From: Escherichia coli
GTDB taxonomy: Bacteria > Pseudomonadota > Gammaproteobacteria > Enterobacterales > Enterobacteriaceae
Reading direction: 5' to 3' (one strand)
DNA: 64,000 nt
Assembly (NCBI RefSeq): GCF_003334335.1
Contig: NZ_QOWQ01000008.1
The notes under the pieces: generated by a model
Told to the model about the DNA's origin: nothing
Databases searched by the model: none
Seen by the model: only the letters and a program-made list of their open reading frames with translations
Made by a program: the position numbers and the translations under genes
Part shown: piece after piece, positions 1 to 3,421 of the stretch
Numbering within the stretch: position 1 is the stretch's first letter
Layout: each line of letters begins with the position of its first letter

Positions 1-894
1 ACGCGTCACGTAGATCTCTTCACCAAAGTGCTGTTCTTTTTGCACATAGTTGTGGTGACAGTTGATCTCTTCCATCGCCAGCGTTTGTGGCTGTCTGACC
101 GTTTTCTGCGTAATGCTCTGCAATGCCGTTACCACGTTTTCCATCATCGCATCGCGGTTAAGGCTGGCAAAAAGCTGCGCCCAGGCCACGGCTTTCAGGT
201 AATCATCAAAGTATTCCGTACCTTCCATAAAGTACGCCAGATCACGCGACGGCAACGTCTCAAGCGTTTCCTGCATCTCTTTTTGTGCCAGATCGATAAA
301 GTAAGTCCCGATGGCGTTACCAATTCCGCGTGAACCGGAGTGCAGCATAATCCACACCTGGTCCGACTCATCAAGGCAGATTTCAATAAAGTGGTTACCG
401 GTTCCCAGCGTTCCCAGGTGTTTATAGTTATTGGTATTCAGGAAACGGGGATATTTTTGCGTTAACCACTGATAACCGGCTTCAAGCTCAGCCCATTTAG
501 CATCGACGTTAACAGGTGGATTTTCCCAGGCACCTTTATCACGTTTACAACGGCCAGTGGTACGCCCGTGCGGCACGGCCGTTTCAATCGCCTGACGCAG
601 CTCTGCCAGGTTTTCAGGCAGGTCTTCCGCCGTTAACGCGGTACGCAGCGCGTTCATTCCACAGCCAATATCCACGCCCACCGCCGCCGGAATAATCGCC
701 CCTTTGGTCGGGATCACGCTACCAATGGTGGAACCTTTACCCAGGTGTACATCAGGCATTACCGCAATATGTTTGAAAATAAACGGCATCTTCGCCGTAT
801 TAATAAGTTGCTGACGCGCATCGGCCTCTACCGGCACGCCTTTGGTCCACATTTTTACCGGGGCATTTTCAGTGGTCAGTAATTCGTAATTCAT
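1..894 (-). CDS. rtcB: RNA-splicing ligase RtcB, 5' portion only (about 298 N-terminal codons; gene runs off window start)
   Basis: Reverse strand from ATG at ~892-894 reads MNYELLTTENAP...; absent from ORF track because no stop lies inside the window; recognised as E. coli rtcB, divergent from rtcR. Confidence 0.85.
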   Translation of the reverse strand, partial: MNYELLTTENAPVKMWTKGVPVEADARQQLINTAKMPFIFKHIAVMPDVHLGKGSTIGSVIPTKGAIIPAAVGVDIGCGMNALRTALTAEDLPENLAELRQAIETAVPHGRTTGRCKRDKGAWENPPVNVDAKWAELEAGYQWLTQKYPRFLNTNNYKHLGTLGTGNHFIEICLDESDQVWIMLHSGSRGIGNAIGTYFIDLAQKEMQETLETLPSRDLAYFMEGTEYFDDYLKAVAWAQLFASLNRDAMMENVVTALQSITQKTVRQPQTLAMEEINCHHNYVQKEQHFGEEIYVTR

Positions 895-931
895 TTTGTT
901 TTTCTCTTTTCGTTGTTTGCTGTCCTGATAA

Positions 932-949
932 TTGCAACCGTCGTGCCAG
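932..949 (-). promoter_or_regulatory. sigma54 (-24/-12) promoter of rtcBA
   Basis: Minus strand reads CTGGCACGACGGTTGCA, a perfect TGGCACG-N4-TTGCA match, ~40 bp upstream of rtcB ATG; the sigma54 activator RtcR is encoded divergently. Confidence 0.7.
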
Positions 950-1082
950 AAAATTAAATAAGCAGCTTAATTTTTTAATTCATTGTTTTAAAAAAGATTA
1001 TATCTTTACGTCCGTAACCGGAGATTTCCCGCAAAGCCAATTTACCGATAATGAAATATCGTCTTTTATAAGGATATCTAAG

Positions 1083-2681
1083 ATGCGTAAAACAGTGGCT
1101 TTTGGCTTTGTCGGTACCGTACTGGATTATGCCGGGCGCGGCAGTCAGCGCTGGTCAAAATGGCGTCCGACACTCTGTTTATGCCAGCAAGAATCGTTGG
1201 TCATCGATCGACTGGAATTGTTGCACGACGCCCGCTCGCGCTCGCTATTTGAAACGCTTAAACGCGATATCGCCAGCGTTTCGCCAGAAACAGAAGTGGT
1301 GAGCGTTGAGATTGAACTGCATAACCCGTGGGATTTCGAAGAGGTCTACGCCTGCCTGCATGATTTCGCCCGTGGTTACGAGTTTCAGCCAGAAAAAGAA
1401 GACTATTTAATTCACATCACCACCGGTACCCACGTCGCGCAGATTTGCTGGTTTCTGCTGGCAGAAGCGCGTTACCTGCCCGCCCGGCTGATACAATCTT
1501 CACCTCCGCGCAAAAAAGAACAGCCGCGCGGCCCAGGTGAAGTAACGATTATCGATCTCGATTTAAGCCGTTATAACGCCATCGCCAGCCGCTTTGCCGA
1601 GGAACGCCAGCAAACGCTTGATTTTCTTAAGTCCGGCATTGCCACGCGTAACCCCCACTTCAACCGCATGATTGAGCAGATCGAAAAAGTGGCGATCAAA
1701 TCCCGCGCGCCGATTCTGCTTAACGGTCCAACCGGCGCGGGCAAGTCATTTCTGGCGCGACGCATCTTCGAGTTAAAACAGGCGCGGCATCAGTTTAGCG
1801 GCGCGTTTGTGGAAGTGAACTGCGCCACCCTGCGCGGCGATACCGCCATGTCGACGCTGTTTGGTCATGTAAAAGGCGCGTTTACCGGGGCGCGGGAATC
1901 TCGTGAAGGTTTATTACGCAGCGCCAACGGCGGAATGTTGTTTCTTGATGAGATTGGCGAACTGGGCGCAGACGAACAGGCAATGCTGCTGAAAGCCATT
2001 GAAGAGAAAACCTTTTACCCGTTTGGCAGCGATCGCCAGGTGAGCAGTGATTTTCAGCTTATCGCCGGAACGGTGCGCGATTTGCGCCAGCTGGTTGCCG
2101 AAGGCAAATTTCGCGAAGATCTGTACGCGCGGATCAATCTCTGGACCTTCACCCTGCCGGGTCTACGCCAGCGCCAGGAAGATATTGAACCGAACCTGGA
2201 TTATGAAGTGGAGCGCCACGCCTCACTCACTGGCGACAGCGTGCGTTTTAACACCGAAGCGCGGCGCGCCTGGTTGGCTTTTGCGACCTCTCCCCAGGCA
2301 ACATGGCGCGGTAACTTTCGCGAACTTTCTGCCAGCGTCACGCGGATGGCCACCTTTGCCACTAGCGGACGCATCACTCTGGACGTGGTTGAAGATGAGA
2401 TAAACCGTCTGCGCTATAACTGGCAGGAGAGCCGCCCCTCCGCGCTTACGGCGTTGCTGGGCGCAGAGGCAGAAAACATCGATCTCTTCGACCGTATGCA
2501 ACTGGAACACGTTATCGCTATCTGCCGCCAGGCAAAGTCGCTTTCCGCAGCCGGACGCCAGCTTTTTGACGTTTCGCGCCAGGGCAAAGCCAGCGTCAAT
2601 GACGCGGATCGGCTACGCAAATACCTGGCGCGTTTTGGTCTGACGTGGGAAGCCGTGCAGGATCAGCACAGCTCCAGTTGA
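1083..2681 (+). CDS. rtcR: sigma54-dependent transcriptional activator RtcR
   Basis: ORF track 532 aa; Walker [12 protein letters not shown] and sigma54-contact GAFTGA motif visible; divergent from rtcB. Confidence 0.95.
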
Positions 2682-3421
2682 ATATGGTGGTCCGTCAGCA
2701 CCTGCATCACGCTTACTGGCGGCGGGGCGTCGGTGTAGACGGCATCTACCATGCTGATGCTGCCCATATTGACCATCGCGTTACGGCCAAATTTCGAGTG
2801 ATCGACAACCAGCATAACGTGGCGCGAGTTCTCAATAATGGCGCGTTTGGTGCGAACTTCGTGGTAATCGAACTCCAGCAGCGAGCCGTCGCTATCGATG
2901 CCGCTTATCCCCAGAATGCCGAAATCAAGGCGGAACTGGGAGATAAAATCGAGCGTCGCTTCGCCAATGATCCCGCCATCGCGGCTGCGTAATTCGCCAC
3001 CGGCGAGAATGATGCGAAAATCTTCTTTTACCATCAACGTGTTAGCAACGTTGAGATTGTTGGTGACAATGCGCAAATTGCTGTGATTGAGCAGTGCGTG
3101 CGCTACCGCTTCCGGCGTGGTGCCGATATCGATAAACAGCGTCGAGCCATTGGGGATTTGCTCCGCCACTTTGCGGGCGATGCGCTCTTTTTCTTCGGTC
3201 TGGGTGGCCTTGCGATCGTGCCACGGCGTGTTAACCGAACTGGAAGGCAGCGCCGCACCGCCATGATGGCGCAGGATCAGGTTTTGCTCCGCCAGCTCAT
3301 TGAGGTCGCGGCGAATAGTCTGCGGGCTGACGGAGAAATGCTCTACCAGCTCTTCGGTACTGACATAACCCTGCTGTTTAACCAGTTCGATAATACCGTT
3401 GTGACGTTGTGTTTGTTTCAT
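2663..3421 (-). CDS. glpR: glycerol-3-phosphate regulon repressor GlpR (DeoR family)
   Basis: ORF track 252 aa; N-terminal HTH; 3' end overlaps rtcR 3' end by 19 bp (convergent). Confidence 0.95.
   Translation of the reverse strand: MKQTQRHNGIIELVKQQGYVSTEELVEHFSVSPQTIRRDLNELAEQNLILRHHGGAALPSSSVNTPWHDRKATQTEEKERIARKVAEQIPNGSTLFIDIGTTPEAVAHALLNHSNLRIVTNNLNVANTLMVKEDFRIILAGGELRSRDGGIIGEATLDFISQFRLDFGILGISGIDSDGSLLEFDYHEVRTKRAIIENSRHVMLVVDHSKFGRNAMVNMGSISMVDAVYTDAPPPVSVMQVLTDHHIQLELC

What the first reader, a model, noticed from the sequence alone, without database searches (positions are those of the whole stretch)
896..1082. Divergent rtcR / sigma54-rtcBA control region for the RNA repair operon
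A perfect sigma54 -24/-12 element (TGGCACG-N4-TTGCA on the minus strand) sits ~40 bp upstream of rtcB, facing the gene for its dedicated AAA+ activator RtcR. The 190-bp AT-rich spacer between should hold the activator-binding and bending sites, which I cannot place by eye.
Basis: partly seen in the sequence, partly recalled or inferred. Interest (0 to 1): 0.3.

Follow-up and report, generated by a model that had tools for sequence, protein, structure and literature searches.

The report
Known sigma-54 rtcBA/rtcR control region

Summary
The window is E. coli chromosome. rtcB starts at 894 on the minus strand, rtcR runs 1083-2681 on the plus strand, and the spacer between them is 188 bp with 32% GC. 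TGGCACGACGGTTGCA at 948..933 (minus strand) is the only exact extended sigma-54 consensus in the 64 kb. The same site is a published sigma-54 ChIP-seq peak for rtcB, with the same 28-nt leader.

An IHF-type site lies at 988..976, centred at -60. Its counterparts sit 27-30 bp upstream of TGGCAC in 9 of 19 RtcR loci from other bacteria. The RtcR enhancer is an array of TAT[A/C]-N6-[G/T]ATA half-sites at 1045-1082, with the best match at 1055-1072, about -142 from the rtcB start site. I found this dyad by comparative genomics, and it matches the published HT-SELEX motif of Pseudomonas aeruginosa RtcR (TTATCC-N4-GGATAA). The array overlaps the likely rtcR promoter and leader, so autoregulation like that of PspF is plausible but untested.

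Interest is low.

The parts
1..894 (-). 5' part of rtcB (RNA ligase), cut by the window edge. The ATG is at 894..892.
   Evidence: The translation starts MNYELLTTENAPVKMW. Identical DNA is annotated rtcB in RefSeq.
895..922 (-). rtcB 5' leader of 28 nt. The start site is C922, with -1 at A923.
   Evidence: C922 lies 12 nt downstream of the C of the -12 GC. The native promoter was primed in vitro with ApC plus ATP, matching A923-C922-A921 (PMC9650030). Bonocora Table 1 gives 28 bp from predicted start site to ATG.
933..948 (-). Sigma-54 promoter. -24 is TGGCACG (948..942) and -12 is TTGCA (937..933).
   Evidence: It is the only exact hit in the window, against 0.06 expected. It is invariant in 5 Escherichia species and 4 E. 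coli alleles. An equivalent element is present in 16 of the first 21 ortholog loci. It is a ChIP-seq peak.
976..988 (-). IHF-type bending site AAACAATGAATTA, centred at -60. It has one mismatch to WATCAANNNNTTR.
   Evidence: It lies 27 bp upstream of TGGCAC. Sites with at most one mismatch lie at 27-30 bp in 9 of 19 loci, six of them perfect, against a shuffle mean of 0.18 and maximum of 2. All three Escherichia substitutions fall in the N4 positions. An 'rtc IHF binding site' is mentioned in PMC9650030.
968..980 (-). Alternative, overlapping IHF-like match AATTAAAAAATTA, with a mismatch at the conserved C.
   Evidence: Its gap to TGGCAC is 19 bp, close to the 17 bp seen in K. oxytoca and Superficieibacter. 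It is less well supported than 976-988.
1010..1027 (.). Block conserved only in Escherichia, GTCCGTAA(A/C)CGGAGATTT, containing the inverted repeat TCCGT-AA-ACGGA. Its function is unknown.
   Evidence: It is invariant apart from one position in the alignments. It is absent from Klebsiella and other orthologs. It does not match the RtcR matrix.
1025..1052 (+). Best candidate sigma-70 promoter for rtcR: TTTCCC (1025-1030), 16 bp, GATAAT (1047-1052). The inferred start site is about 1059.
   Evidence: It is the top-scoring pair in a lenient scan, 8 of 12 matches. CGATAAT is conserved in all four enteric genera. The strict scan found nothing, and no start-site data were available.
1045..1082 (.). 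RtcR enhancer (UAS): an array of TATC/GATA-type half-sites in 10-bp register. Matrix matches are 1045-1062 (6.5 bits), 1055-1072 (9.3 bits, the best) and 1065-1082 (6.3 bits).
   Evidence: An unbiased dyad enumeration ranked these dyads first. The exact dyad occurs in 11 of 19 loci in the 60 nt next to rtcR and in none of the rest of the spacer, against a shuffle maximum of 2. It matches the HT-SELEX motif of P. aeruginosa RtcR, NTTATCCNNNNGGATAAN (PMC8041468 supplementary file 9). The region is invariant across Escherichia.
1046..1061 (.). Exact inverted repeat CGATA-N6-TATCG. Its polarity is opposite to the SELEX dyad, and its left half is the putative rtcR -10.
   Evidence: It is the only GATA-N6-TATC in the 64 kb. 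It is conserved in four enteric genera with a variable N6.
1070..1074 (+). rtcR Shine-Dalgarno sequence AAGGA, 8 nt before the ATG.
   Evidence: Read directly from the sequence.
1083..2681 (+). rtcR, 532 aa: RtcR/CARF domain 2-185, sigma-54 AAA+ domain 187-354 with GAFTGA, lid 362-443, and a conserved C-terminal helix-turn-helix.
   Evidence: The HTH (AGRx[14 protein letters not shown]) is nearly invariant in 18 orthologs.

Best explanation
This is the divergent rtcR / rtcBA control region of E. coli, a classic enhancer-dependent sigma-54 promoter.

Shown by sequence together with published experiments:
- Sigma-54 holoenzyme sits as a closed complex on TGGCACG-N4-TTGCA (948..933).
- It starts the rtcBA mRNA at C922, giving a 28-nt leader.
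- It does so only when the AAA+ activator RtcR, encoded divergently at 1083-2681, is switched on through its CARF domain.

Inferred here from comparative genomics and a published SELEX matrix:
- RtcR dimers bind an array of TAT[A/C]-N6-[G/T]ATA half-sites at 1045-1082. The best site is 1055-1072, centred about -142 from the rtcB start site.
- IHF bends the AT-rich DNA at 988..976, centred at -60, so that the RtcR oligomer reaches the closed complex.

Inferred and untested:
- The array overlaps the probable rtcR -10 (GATAAT, 1047-1052), the rtcR start site and its leader. Bound RtcR would therefore also limit its own synthesis, as PspF does.

Sub-confidences: promoter and regulator identity about 0.98, IHF site placement about 0.7, enhancer lying within 1045-1082 about 0.8, autoregulation about 0.4.
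For: The motif is unique in the window. Gene identities are secure. [quoted passage not shown] The ApC/ATP priming of the native promoter fits A923/C922/A921.

A reporter carrying only the 175 nt upstream of rtcB (window 895-1069) is RtcR-dependent and titrates RtcR when in multicopy. RtcR sites must therefore lie in 949-1069.

A sigma-54 element faces away from rtcR at 114-161 bp in loci from Gamma-, Beta-, Alpha- and Deltaproteobacteria.

Phased IHF consensus: 9 of 19 loci at 27-30 bp, against a shuffle maximum of 2; with look-elsewhere correction, 9 against a maximum of 3.

Dyad: ranked first in the unbiased enumeration; exact in 11 of 19 loci next to rtcR and 0 of 19 elsewhere, against a shuffle mean of 0.19. 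In the six loci added afterwards it is exact in 3 and within one mismatch in all 6. It is independently the same as the HT-SELEX motif of PA4581 RtcR. That matrix scores 12.6-15.4 bits at the rtcR-proximal end in 12 loci (13 including Intestinirhabdus), and its best E. coli spacer hit ranks 6th of 63,983 window positions.

The RtcR HTH is nearly invariant. Dyad-to-promoter distances fall in steps of about one helical turn. The array is invariant across Escherichia.
Against: - The E. coli match to the SELEX matrix is only 9.3 of a possible 20 bits. It is not significant against shuffles of this AT-rich spacer alone (P about 0.16). Its support is positional orthology.
- The published reporter ends at about 1069, one base short of the core of the best site and excluding 1070-1082.
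- The only exact dyad in E. coli (1047-1060) has the opposite polarity to the SELEX dyad.
- The E. coli IHF site has a mismatch at a conserved core T.
- In Salmonella, Fis rather than IHF was the factor found genetically to be needed.
- A 2016 review lists the RtcR enhancer as not known. No footprint was found in the papers I could read.
- The SELEX protein is from Pseudomonas, not E. coli.
- The phasing test has only 9-12 data points, the loci are related, and I scanned several periods.
Confidence: 0.87

Rival explanations
1. The E. coli enhancer is the exact inverted repeat CGATA-N6-TATCG (1046-1061, centre -131.5), bound by one RtcR dimer, and not the SELEX-polarity site at 1055-1072.
For: It is the only exact GATA-N6-TATC in the 64 kb. 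It is perfectly conserved in four enteric genera with a variable spacer, which is typical of a protein footprint. It lies wholly inside the functional 175-nt reporter. Similar opposite-polarity dyads occur in Pseudomonas GD03944 and, imperfectly, in B. stagnalis.
Against: Its polarity is opposite to the experimentally selected RtcR dyad, and it scores only 6.5 bits with that matrix. Its two halves can each be explained separately: GATAAT as the rtcR -10, and TATCG as the shared half of the 1055-1072 site. Outside the enterics the dominant conserved dyad has the SELEX polarity.
Confidence: 0.25
2. DNA bending between enhancer and promoter in E. coli is provided by Fis or by intrinsic A-tract curvature, not by IHF at 976-988.
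For: The E. coli site has a mismatch at a core position. fis is required for activation of the orthologous Salmonella promoter, and IHF is not mentioned in that study. A genome-wide ChIP-exo study saw no general IHF enrichment upstream of sigma-54 sites. The spacer is rich in phased A/T tracts.
Against: Perfect IHF consensus sequences sit at the same distance and in the same orientation in six other genera, and the E. coli site is their positional ortholog. Within-genus substitutions avoid the specified bases. Authors working on the E. coli promoter refer to an rtc IHF site. The Fis requirement may act on RtcR signalling and not at the promoter.
Confidence: 0.25
3. The dyad array serves only rtcR, as its sigma-70 promoter, leader and an autoregulatory operator. 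The enhancer for rtcBA lies elsewhere in the spacer, for example at the conserved block 1010-1027.
For: The array is anchored to the rtcR start codon (index 1-4 in most loci) and not at a fixed distance from the sigma-54 element. It overlaps -10-like hexamers and the Shine-Dalgarno sequence. The block 1010-1027 is conserved in Escherichia and unexplained.
Against: No other part of any spacer matches the RtcR matrix or carries a conserved dyad: 0 of 19 loci in the distal part. The block 1010-1027 is genus-specific, whereas the RtcR HTH is conserved across classes. Dyad-to-promoter distances keep helical phase. In P. brassicae and P. palmensis the dyad is kept although its spacer is inverted and the GGA is lost, so it is not simply a Shine-Dalgarno sequence.
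Confidence: 0.07
4. The -24/-12 match is a chance or merely poised sigma-54 site with no role in rtcBA expression.
For: [quoted passage not shown]
Against: Only 0.06 matches are expected by chance. The site is in the right position and orientation before rtcB, is conserved from Escherichia to Desulfobulbus, is a ChIP-seq peak flagged as experimentally confirmed, and supports RtcR-dependent reporter activity.
Confidence: 0.01

Closest known systems
E. coli rtcBA promoter and RtcR (Genschik et al. 1998; EcoCyc rtcBp; Bonocora et al. 2015 site OS35)
   Same: It is the same locus. The motif CTGGCACGACGGTTGCA, the minus strand and the 28-bp leader are identical, and so are the divergent rtcR gene and the RtcR and sigma-54 dependence.
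   Different: Nothing differs in kind. This strain's spacer is the common K-12-like allele, 100% identical in many genomes. The papers I could read give no coordinates for the UAS or the IHF site; those placements are added here. I could not read the 1998 paper. That its abstract already names the TTGCA and TGGCA elements is from my memory.
Salmonella Typhimurium rtcR / rsr-yrlBA-rtcBA control region
   Same: An orthologous activator and a divergent sigma-54 promoter (TGGCACGCTGGTTGCAAT) that is bound by sigma-54 and dependent on RtcR.
   Different: In Salmonella the first genes of the operon are rsr and the Y RNAs. In E. coli the promoter drives rtcB directly. Rfam finds no RNA gene in 600-1400. 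Fis dependence was shown in Salmonella and has not been examined in E. coli.
pspF / pspABCDE control region of E. coli
   Same: A divergent bEBP gene and a sigma-54 operon, an IHF site between enhancer and promoter, and enhancer sites overlapping the activator's own sigma-70 promoter region, giving autogenous control. This is established knowledge; Jovanovic et al. 1997 is cited.
   Different: PspF has no sensory domain and is held in check by PspA. RtcR is held in check by its CARF domain. RtcR autoregulation is only inferred here, and current models assume constitutive rtcR expression.
P. aeruginosa RtcR (PA4581) HT-SELEX motif NTTATCCNNNNGGATAAN
   Same: The same dyad, TTATCC-N4-GGATAA or close variants, lies next to the rtcR start in 12 or more loci. 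It is the best matrix hit in the E. coli spacer.
   Different: The E. coli site is degenerate (AATATCGTCTTTTATAAG, 9.3 bits) and is accompanied by two weaker matches at plus and minus 10 bp. The SELEX study, as far as I read it, did not link the motif to the rtc enhancer.
norR / norVW enhancer (three GT-N7-AC sites)
   Same: A divergent arrangement with several short dyad sites in helical register that together assemble the activator oligomer. This is established knowledge, and the motif is listed.
   Different: The motif and the sensory domain differ. The requirement for multiple sites is demonstrated for NorR and is only suggested by sequence for RtcR.

Membership tests
Sigma-54 (-24/-12) promoter | GG and GC doublets exactly 10 bp apart within TGGCAC-N5-TTGCW | tested here: met
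   TGGCACGACGGTTGCA at 948..933. One exact hit against 0.06 expected.
Sigma-54 (-24/-12) promoter | Correct position and orientation upstream of a gene, conserved in orthologous loci | tested here: met
   It lies 38 bp before the rtcB ATG. An equivalent element is on the strand opposite rtcR in 16 of the first 21 loci, plus 4-6 plasmid or chromid loci.
Sigma-54 (-24/-12) promoter | Bound by sigma-54 in vivo, with transcription dependent on rpoN | not testable with these tools
   Reported in the literature: ChIP-seq peak OS35, flagged as confirmed; sigma-54 dependence is stated.
Bacterial enhancer-binding protein of the RtcR type | N-terminal RtcR/CARF domain plus a sigma-54 interaction AAA+ domain with a GAFTGA loop | tested here: met
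   Pfam RtcR 2-185 (1.4e-85) and Sigma54_activat 187-354 (9.4e-51). NCBIfam equivalog at 852 bits against a cut-off of 650. GAFTGA and GPTGAGKS are visible in the translation.
Bacterial enhancer-binding protein of the RtcR type | C-terminal DNA-binding helix-turn-helix | tested here: inconclusive
   No Pfam HTH family matches, and the SELEX atlas lists the DBD family as 'undetectable'. However, a C-terminal segment that looks like an HTH is nearly invariant in 18 orthologs, and the full-length Pseudomonas protein selects a specific dyad.
bEBP enhancer (UAS) | Dyad-symmetric sites matching the activator's specificity, about 80-150 bp upstream of the start site | tested here: met
   Matrix hits at 1045-1082, with the best at 1055-1072 centred about -142. 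Conserved position in 17 of 19 loci. The E. coli match itself is weak (9.3 bits).
bEBP enhancer (UAS) | Direct binding by the activator, and a requirement for activation | not testable with these tools
   Indirect only: the 895-1069 fragment confers RtcR dependence and titrates RtcR.
IHF binding site | Match to WATCAANNNNTTR, located between the enhancer and the promoter | tested here: met
   AAACAATGAATTA at 988..976, with one mismatch. Positional orthologs are perfect in six genera, with a gap of 27-30 bp in 9 of 19 loci against a shuffle maximum of 2.
IHF binding site | IHF occupancy and bending | not testable with these tools
   The supplement of the IHF ChIP-seq paper is not held. The ChIP-exo paper does not mention rtc. 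PMC9650030 names an rtc IHF site without giving data.

The most novel reading that the evidence does not exclude
The RtcR enhancer is a conserved array of TAT[A/C]-N6-[G/T]ATA sites that sits directly on the rtcR promoter and leader in Alpha-, Beta-, Gamma- and some Deltaproteobacteria. One set of sites would then both activate the RNA-repair operon, across an IHF bend and in helical phase, and repress rtcR itself. In E. coli the array has decayed into three weak sites in 10-bp register, which would make activation strongly dependent on cooperative oligomerisation. Current quantitative models of the Rtc system assume constitutive rtcR expression, so this would change them.
Probability: 0.4. 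Interest if true: 0.25.

Novelty: already known. Interest (0 to 1): 0.1.

Why it matters
The Rtc system repairs damaged tRNA and rRNA and contributes to transient tolerance of ribosome-targeting antibiotics, so its switch is of practical interest. The promoter and its activator have been known since 1998, and the site has been mapped genome-wide.

The only added value here is positional. The IHF and RtcR sites now have coordinates. The Pseudomonas SELEX motif is tied to the rtc enhancer in many bacteria. The overlap with the rtcR promoter gives a testable prediction of autoregulation, which published models of Rtc bistability do not include.

Tried and rejected
- Rfam at a permissive threshold on 600-1400 found no RNA family, so there is no Y-RNA or riboswitch-like element as in the Salmonella operon.
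- The strict sigma-70 and terminator scan found no rtcR promoter. Only a lenient scan gave TTTCCC-16-GATAAT.
- Generic repeat finding in the spacer returned mostly AT-rich chance pairs and did not single out the relevant dyad.
- The founding paper (PubMed id 9738023) is not held. The supplements of PMC9650030 name the UAS plasmid but give no sequence. The IHF ChIP-seq supplement is not held.
- I first took the exact repeat CGATA-N6-TATCG (1046-1061) to be the RtcR site. After finding the SELEX matrix I demoted it, because its polarity is opposite and it scores lower than 1055-1072. It is kept as a rival.
- Four fetched loci were not usable for the spacer comparison. In Variovorax, rtcR is not divergent from a target operon. 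The Pseudomonas Leaf58 protein is a short RtcR-family protein with no clear GC at -12. The Acinetobacter intergenic region is only 67 bp. The Novosphingobium rtcR ORF is truncated at 440 aa.
- Two Desulfo-lineage loci (L017, L019) show no convincing RtcR-matrix site.
- The conserved block 1010-1027 was searched elsewhere in the window and not found in any meaningful form.

Full report
IDENTITY OF THE REGION
The first 3 kb of the window hold a long minus-strand ORF that runs off the window start and begins at ATG 894 (MNYELLTTENAPVKMW...). A plus-strand ORF runs 1083-2681. Megablast of 700-1300 finds the same DNA in 4,858 of 5,426 complete E. coli genomes, where it is annotated rtcB and rtcR. 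In one 100%-identical record the order is malT, rtcA, rtcB, rtcR, glpR, glpG. The plus-strand protein reaches the NCBIfam RtcR equivalog at 852 bits against a cut-off of 650. It has the Pfam RtcR domain (2-185), the sigma-54 interaction domain (187-354) and an AAA lid. GPTGAGKS and GAFTGA are visible in the translation. The intergenic spacer is 895-1082, 188 bp, with 32% GC against 53% for the window.

THE OBSERVATION
On the minus strand, 948..933 reads TGGCACGACGGTTGCA. It is the only exact match to TGGCACG-N4-TTGCW in the 64 kb, where shuffles give 0.06. The relaxed pattern gives one other perfect hit, discussed under side observations. GG is at 947/946 and GC at 935/934. Twelve bases after the C of GC lies C922, preceded by A923, which leaves a 28-nt leader. 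The -12 element ends 38 bp before the ATG.

WHAT IS ALREADY KNOWN
- Bonocora et al. 2015 list sigma-54 ChIP-seq peak OS35 with motif CTGGCACGACGGTTGCA, minus strand, gene rtcB, 28 bp from predicted start site to gene start, flagged as an experimentally confirmed promoter.
- Kotta-Loizou et al. 2022 primed the native promoter in vitro with ApC plus ATP, which fits A923-C922-A921. They state that rtcBA depends on a sigma-54 promoter and on RtcR. They speak of 'the rtcBA UAS' and 'the rtc IHF binding site' without giving positions.
- Engl et al. [quoted passage not shown] In multicopy this plasmid titrates RtcR.
- The orthologous Salmonella promoter (rsr) is bound by sigma-54 and activated 71-fold by a promiscuous activator.
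- A 2016 review lists the RtcR enhancer sequence as 'NK', not known.
- I could not read Genschik et al. 1998. That its abstract already names the TTGCA and TGGCA elements is from my memory.

PLACING THE BENDING SITE
I fetched rtcR loci from other species: 21 from representative genomes and 9 from plasmids or chromids. A sigma-54 element on the strand opposite rtcR lies 114-161 bp from the rtcR start in 19 usable, non-redundant loci, from Escherichia to Desulfobulbus and Methylosinus.

In the rtcB-sense strand, WATCAANNNNTTR with at most one mismatch lies 27-30 bp upstream of TGGCAC in 9 of 19 loci. Six are perfect: Iodobacter, Accumulibacter, three Pseudomonas and a Citrobacter plasmid locus. 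Dinucleotide shuffles give a mean of 0.18 and a maximum of 2. Allowing any 4-bp distance window, the observed best is 9 against a shuffle maximum of 3. Two further loci (K. oxytoca, Superficieibacter) have the site at 17 bp, one helical turn closer.

The E. coli member is AAACAATGAATTA at 988..976, with a gap of 27 bp and a centre at -60. It has one mismatch at a core T. Among five Escherichia species, the three substitutions inside this 13-mer all fall in the unspecified N4 positions. It is invariant among four divergent E. coli alleles. An overlapping second match (980..968) is less well supported.

PLACING THE ACTIVATOR SITE
Enumerating every 4- and 5-mer dyad with gaps of 0-12 over the first 13 spacers put GATA-N6-TATC, TATC-N6-GATA and CGATA-N6-TATCG at the top. 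The 5-mer dyad occurred in 4 loci, whereas no shuffle exceeded 3.

Over all 19 loci an exact TATC-N6-GATA or GATA-N6-TATC occurs within the 60 nt next to the rtcR start in 11 loci, and nowhere in the remaining ~80 nt of any spacer. Shuffles give a mean of 0.19 and a maximum of 2. With one mismatch allowed the count is 17 of 19, against a mean of 2.9. The six loci added after the motif had been defined carry it exactly in 3 and within one mismatch in all 6.

The commonest form is TTATCCAAAAAGATAA, 2-6 bp from the rtcR ATG. In P. brassicae and P. palmensis the dyad is kept while its A5 spacer is inverted, so it is not merely the Shine-Dalgarno sequence. The C-terminal HTH-like segment of RtcR (AGRx[14 protein letters not shown]) is almost invariant in 18 orthologs, as expected for a conserved target.

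A literature search then turned up the HT-SELEX atlas of P. aeruginosa transcription factors. For full-length PA4581 RtcR it reports NTTATCCNNNNGGATAAN, dimeric, with a matrix that accepts A or C at the fourth half-site position. This is the same dyad, obtained experimentally and independently.

Scanning with that matrix gives 12.6-15.4 bits at the rtcR-proximal end of the spacer in 12 loci, or 13 including Intestinirhabdus (shuffle P at most 0.03). In E. coli the best spacer hit is 1055-1072 (AATATCGTCTTTTATAAG, 9.3 bits), which ranks sixth of 63,983 window positions. Weaker hits lie exactly 10 bp either side, at 1045-1062 (6.5 bits) and 1065-1082 (6.3 bits). The E. coli score alone is not significant in this AT-rich context (P about 0.16). 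Its support is that K. oxytoca and Intestinirhabdus have their best site at the same index, and that 1045-1085 is invariant across Escherichia.

Distances from exact dyad centres to the -24 GG cluster near 106, 117, 127 and 139 bp (Rayleigh R about 0.7, nominal p 0.003-0.009, n = 9-12). This suggests face-of-helix coupling to the sigma-54 promoter. The sample is small, the loci are related, and I scanned several periods.

RELATION TO THE rtcR PROMOTER
The best sigma-70 candidate for rtcR is TTTCCC (1025-1030), 16 bp, GATAAT (1047-1052). CGATAAT is shared by the four enteric genera, and -10-like hexamers lie at the same index in other lineages.

This explains why E. coli has an exact dyad of the 'wrong' polarity, CGATA-N6-TATCG at 1046-1061, the only GATA-N6-TATC in the window. 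One arm is the -10 and the other is a half-site of the 1055-1072 element.

A start site near 1059 would put the central RtcR site on +1 to +14 of the rtcR transcript. RtcR bound to its enhancer would then hinder its own promoter, as PspF does. This step is inference only, and a recent quantitative model assumes constitutive rtcR expression.

MECHANISM
- Established: sigma-54 holoenzyme forms a closed complex at 948..933. RtcR, released from CARF-domain inhibition, assembles on upstream DNA and uses ATP to open the promoter, and transcription starts at C922.
- Placed here: the enhancer at 1045-1082 and the IHF bend at 976-988.
- Open questions: whether Fis, which is required in Salmonella, or intrinsic curvature contributes; which half-sites are used; and whether rtcR is autoregulated.

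CAVEATS
- The published functional fragment ends at about 1069. It therefore lacks 1070-1082 and the last base of the core of the best site.
- The SELEX matrix comes from the Pseudomonas ortholog.
- No direct RtcR or IHF binding data for this DNA were accessible.

VERDICT
The finding is real and correctly interpreted, and it describes a textbook-type, already characterised control region. The site placements are a modest refinement.

SIDE OBSERVATIONS
- The second perfect sigma-54 match (42877..42862) lies 41 bp upstream of rpoH and is the known rpoH sigma-54 site, OS36.
- A block conserved only in Escherichia, 1010-1027, contains the inverted repeat TCCGT-AA-ACGGA and is unexplained. The K-12-like allele in this window breaks the repeat.
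- Strain S88 carries TATC-to-TCTC at window position 1058 inside the enhancer, and its rtcR is annotated as frameshifted.
- IS1 has inserted into the spacer in at least two strains.

Noticed in passing
window 42862-42877 (minus strand): A second perfect sigma-54 element, TGGCACAGTTGTTGCT, lies 41 bp upstream of the rpoH ORF (41967-42821, minus strand). It equals the published rpoH sigma-54 ChIP-seq site OS36, which is flagged as confirmed.
   Followed up: yes
window 1010-1027: The block GTCCGTAA(A/C)CGGAGATTT is invariant across five Escherichia species and absent from other genera. It contains the inverted repeat TCCGT-AA-ACGGA. This window's K-12-like allele has C instead of A, which breaks the repeat. 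It lies about 40 bp upstream of the putative rtcR start site. No binding factor was identified, and it does not match the RtcR matrix.
   Followed up: partly
L033 (E. coli S88), corresponding to window 1058: S88 has TATC changed to TCTC at a strongly selected position of the RtcR half-site. Its rtcR is annotated as a frameshifted pseudogene. This may reflect relaxed constraint on the enhancer once the activator is lost. It is a single case.
   Followed up: partly
L035 (strain LB858871), after about window 946; also hit H1 (strain N2250): IS1 elements are inserted within the rtcB-rtcR spacer or locus in some E. coli strains, with rtcB disrupted in LB858871. About 570 of 5,426 complete genomes have no match to the spacer at all. 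About 1,400 carry an allele only 90-95% identical, which is more divergent than the flanking coding DNA.
   Followed up: partly
window 2663-2681: The 3' ends of rtcR (plus strand, ending at 2681) and the convergent glpR-type ORF (minus strand, 2663-3421) overlap by 19 bp.
   Followed up: no
window 941 versus 42870: The two sigma-54 motif centres are 41,929 bp apart here but 42,707 bp apart in the MG1655 coordinates of Bonocora Table 1. The difference of about 778 bp is the size of an IS1 insertion, so this strain probably lacks an IS1 that MG1655 carries in the interval.
   Followed up: no
L028 (Citrobacter freundii plasmid), L025 (Shinella), L026 (Methylosinus), L029 (Acinetobacter): The first gene driven by the RtcR-controlled promoter differs between loci. 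It is a slipin-family protein plus a nucleotidyltransferase in L028, with no rtcB within 2.5 kb. It is an annotated RNA-binding protein of about 518 aa in Shinella, a hypothetical protein of the same size in Methylosinus, and RNase Z in Acinetobacter. The RtcR dyad next to rtcR is still present in L025, L026 and L028.
   Followed up: partly
L024 and L025 (Rhizobium, Shinella), about 158 bp upstream of rtcR: The -12 element reads TTGAA instead of TTGC (TGGCACGCGTCTTGAAA), and a second TGGCACG follows 9 nt downstream. This is an unusual tandem arrangement and was not examined further.
   Followed up: no
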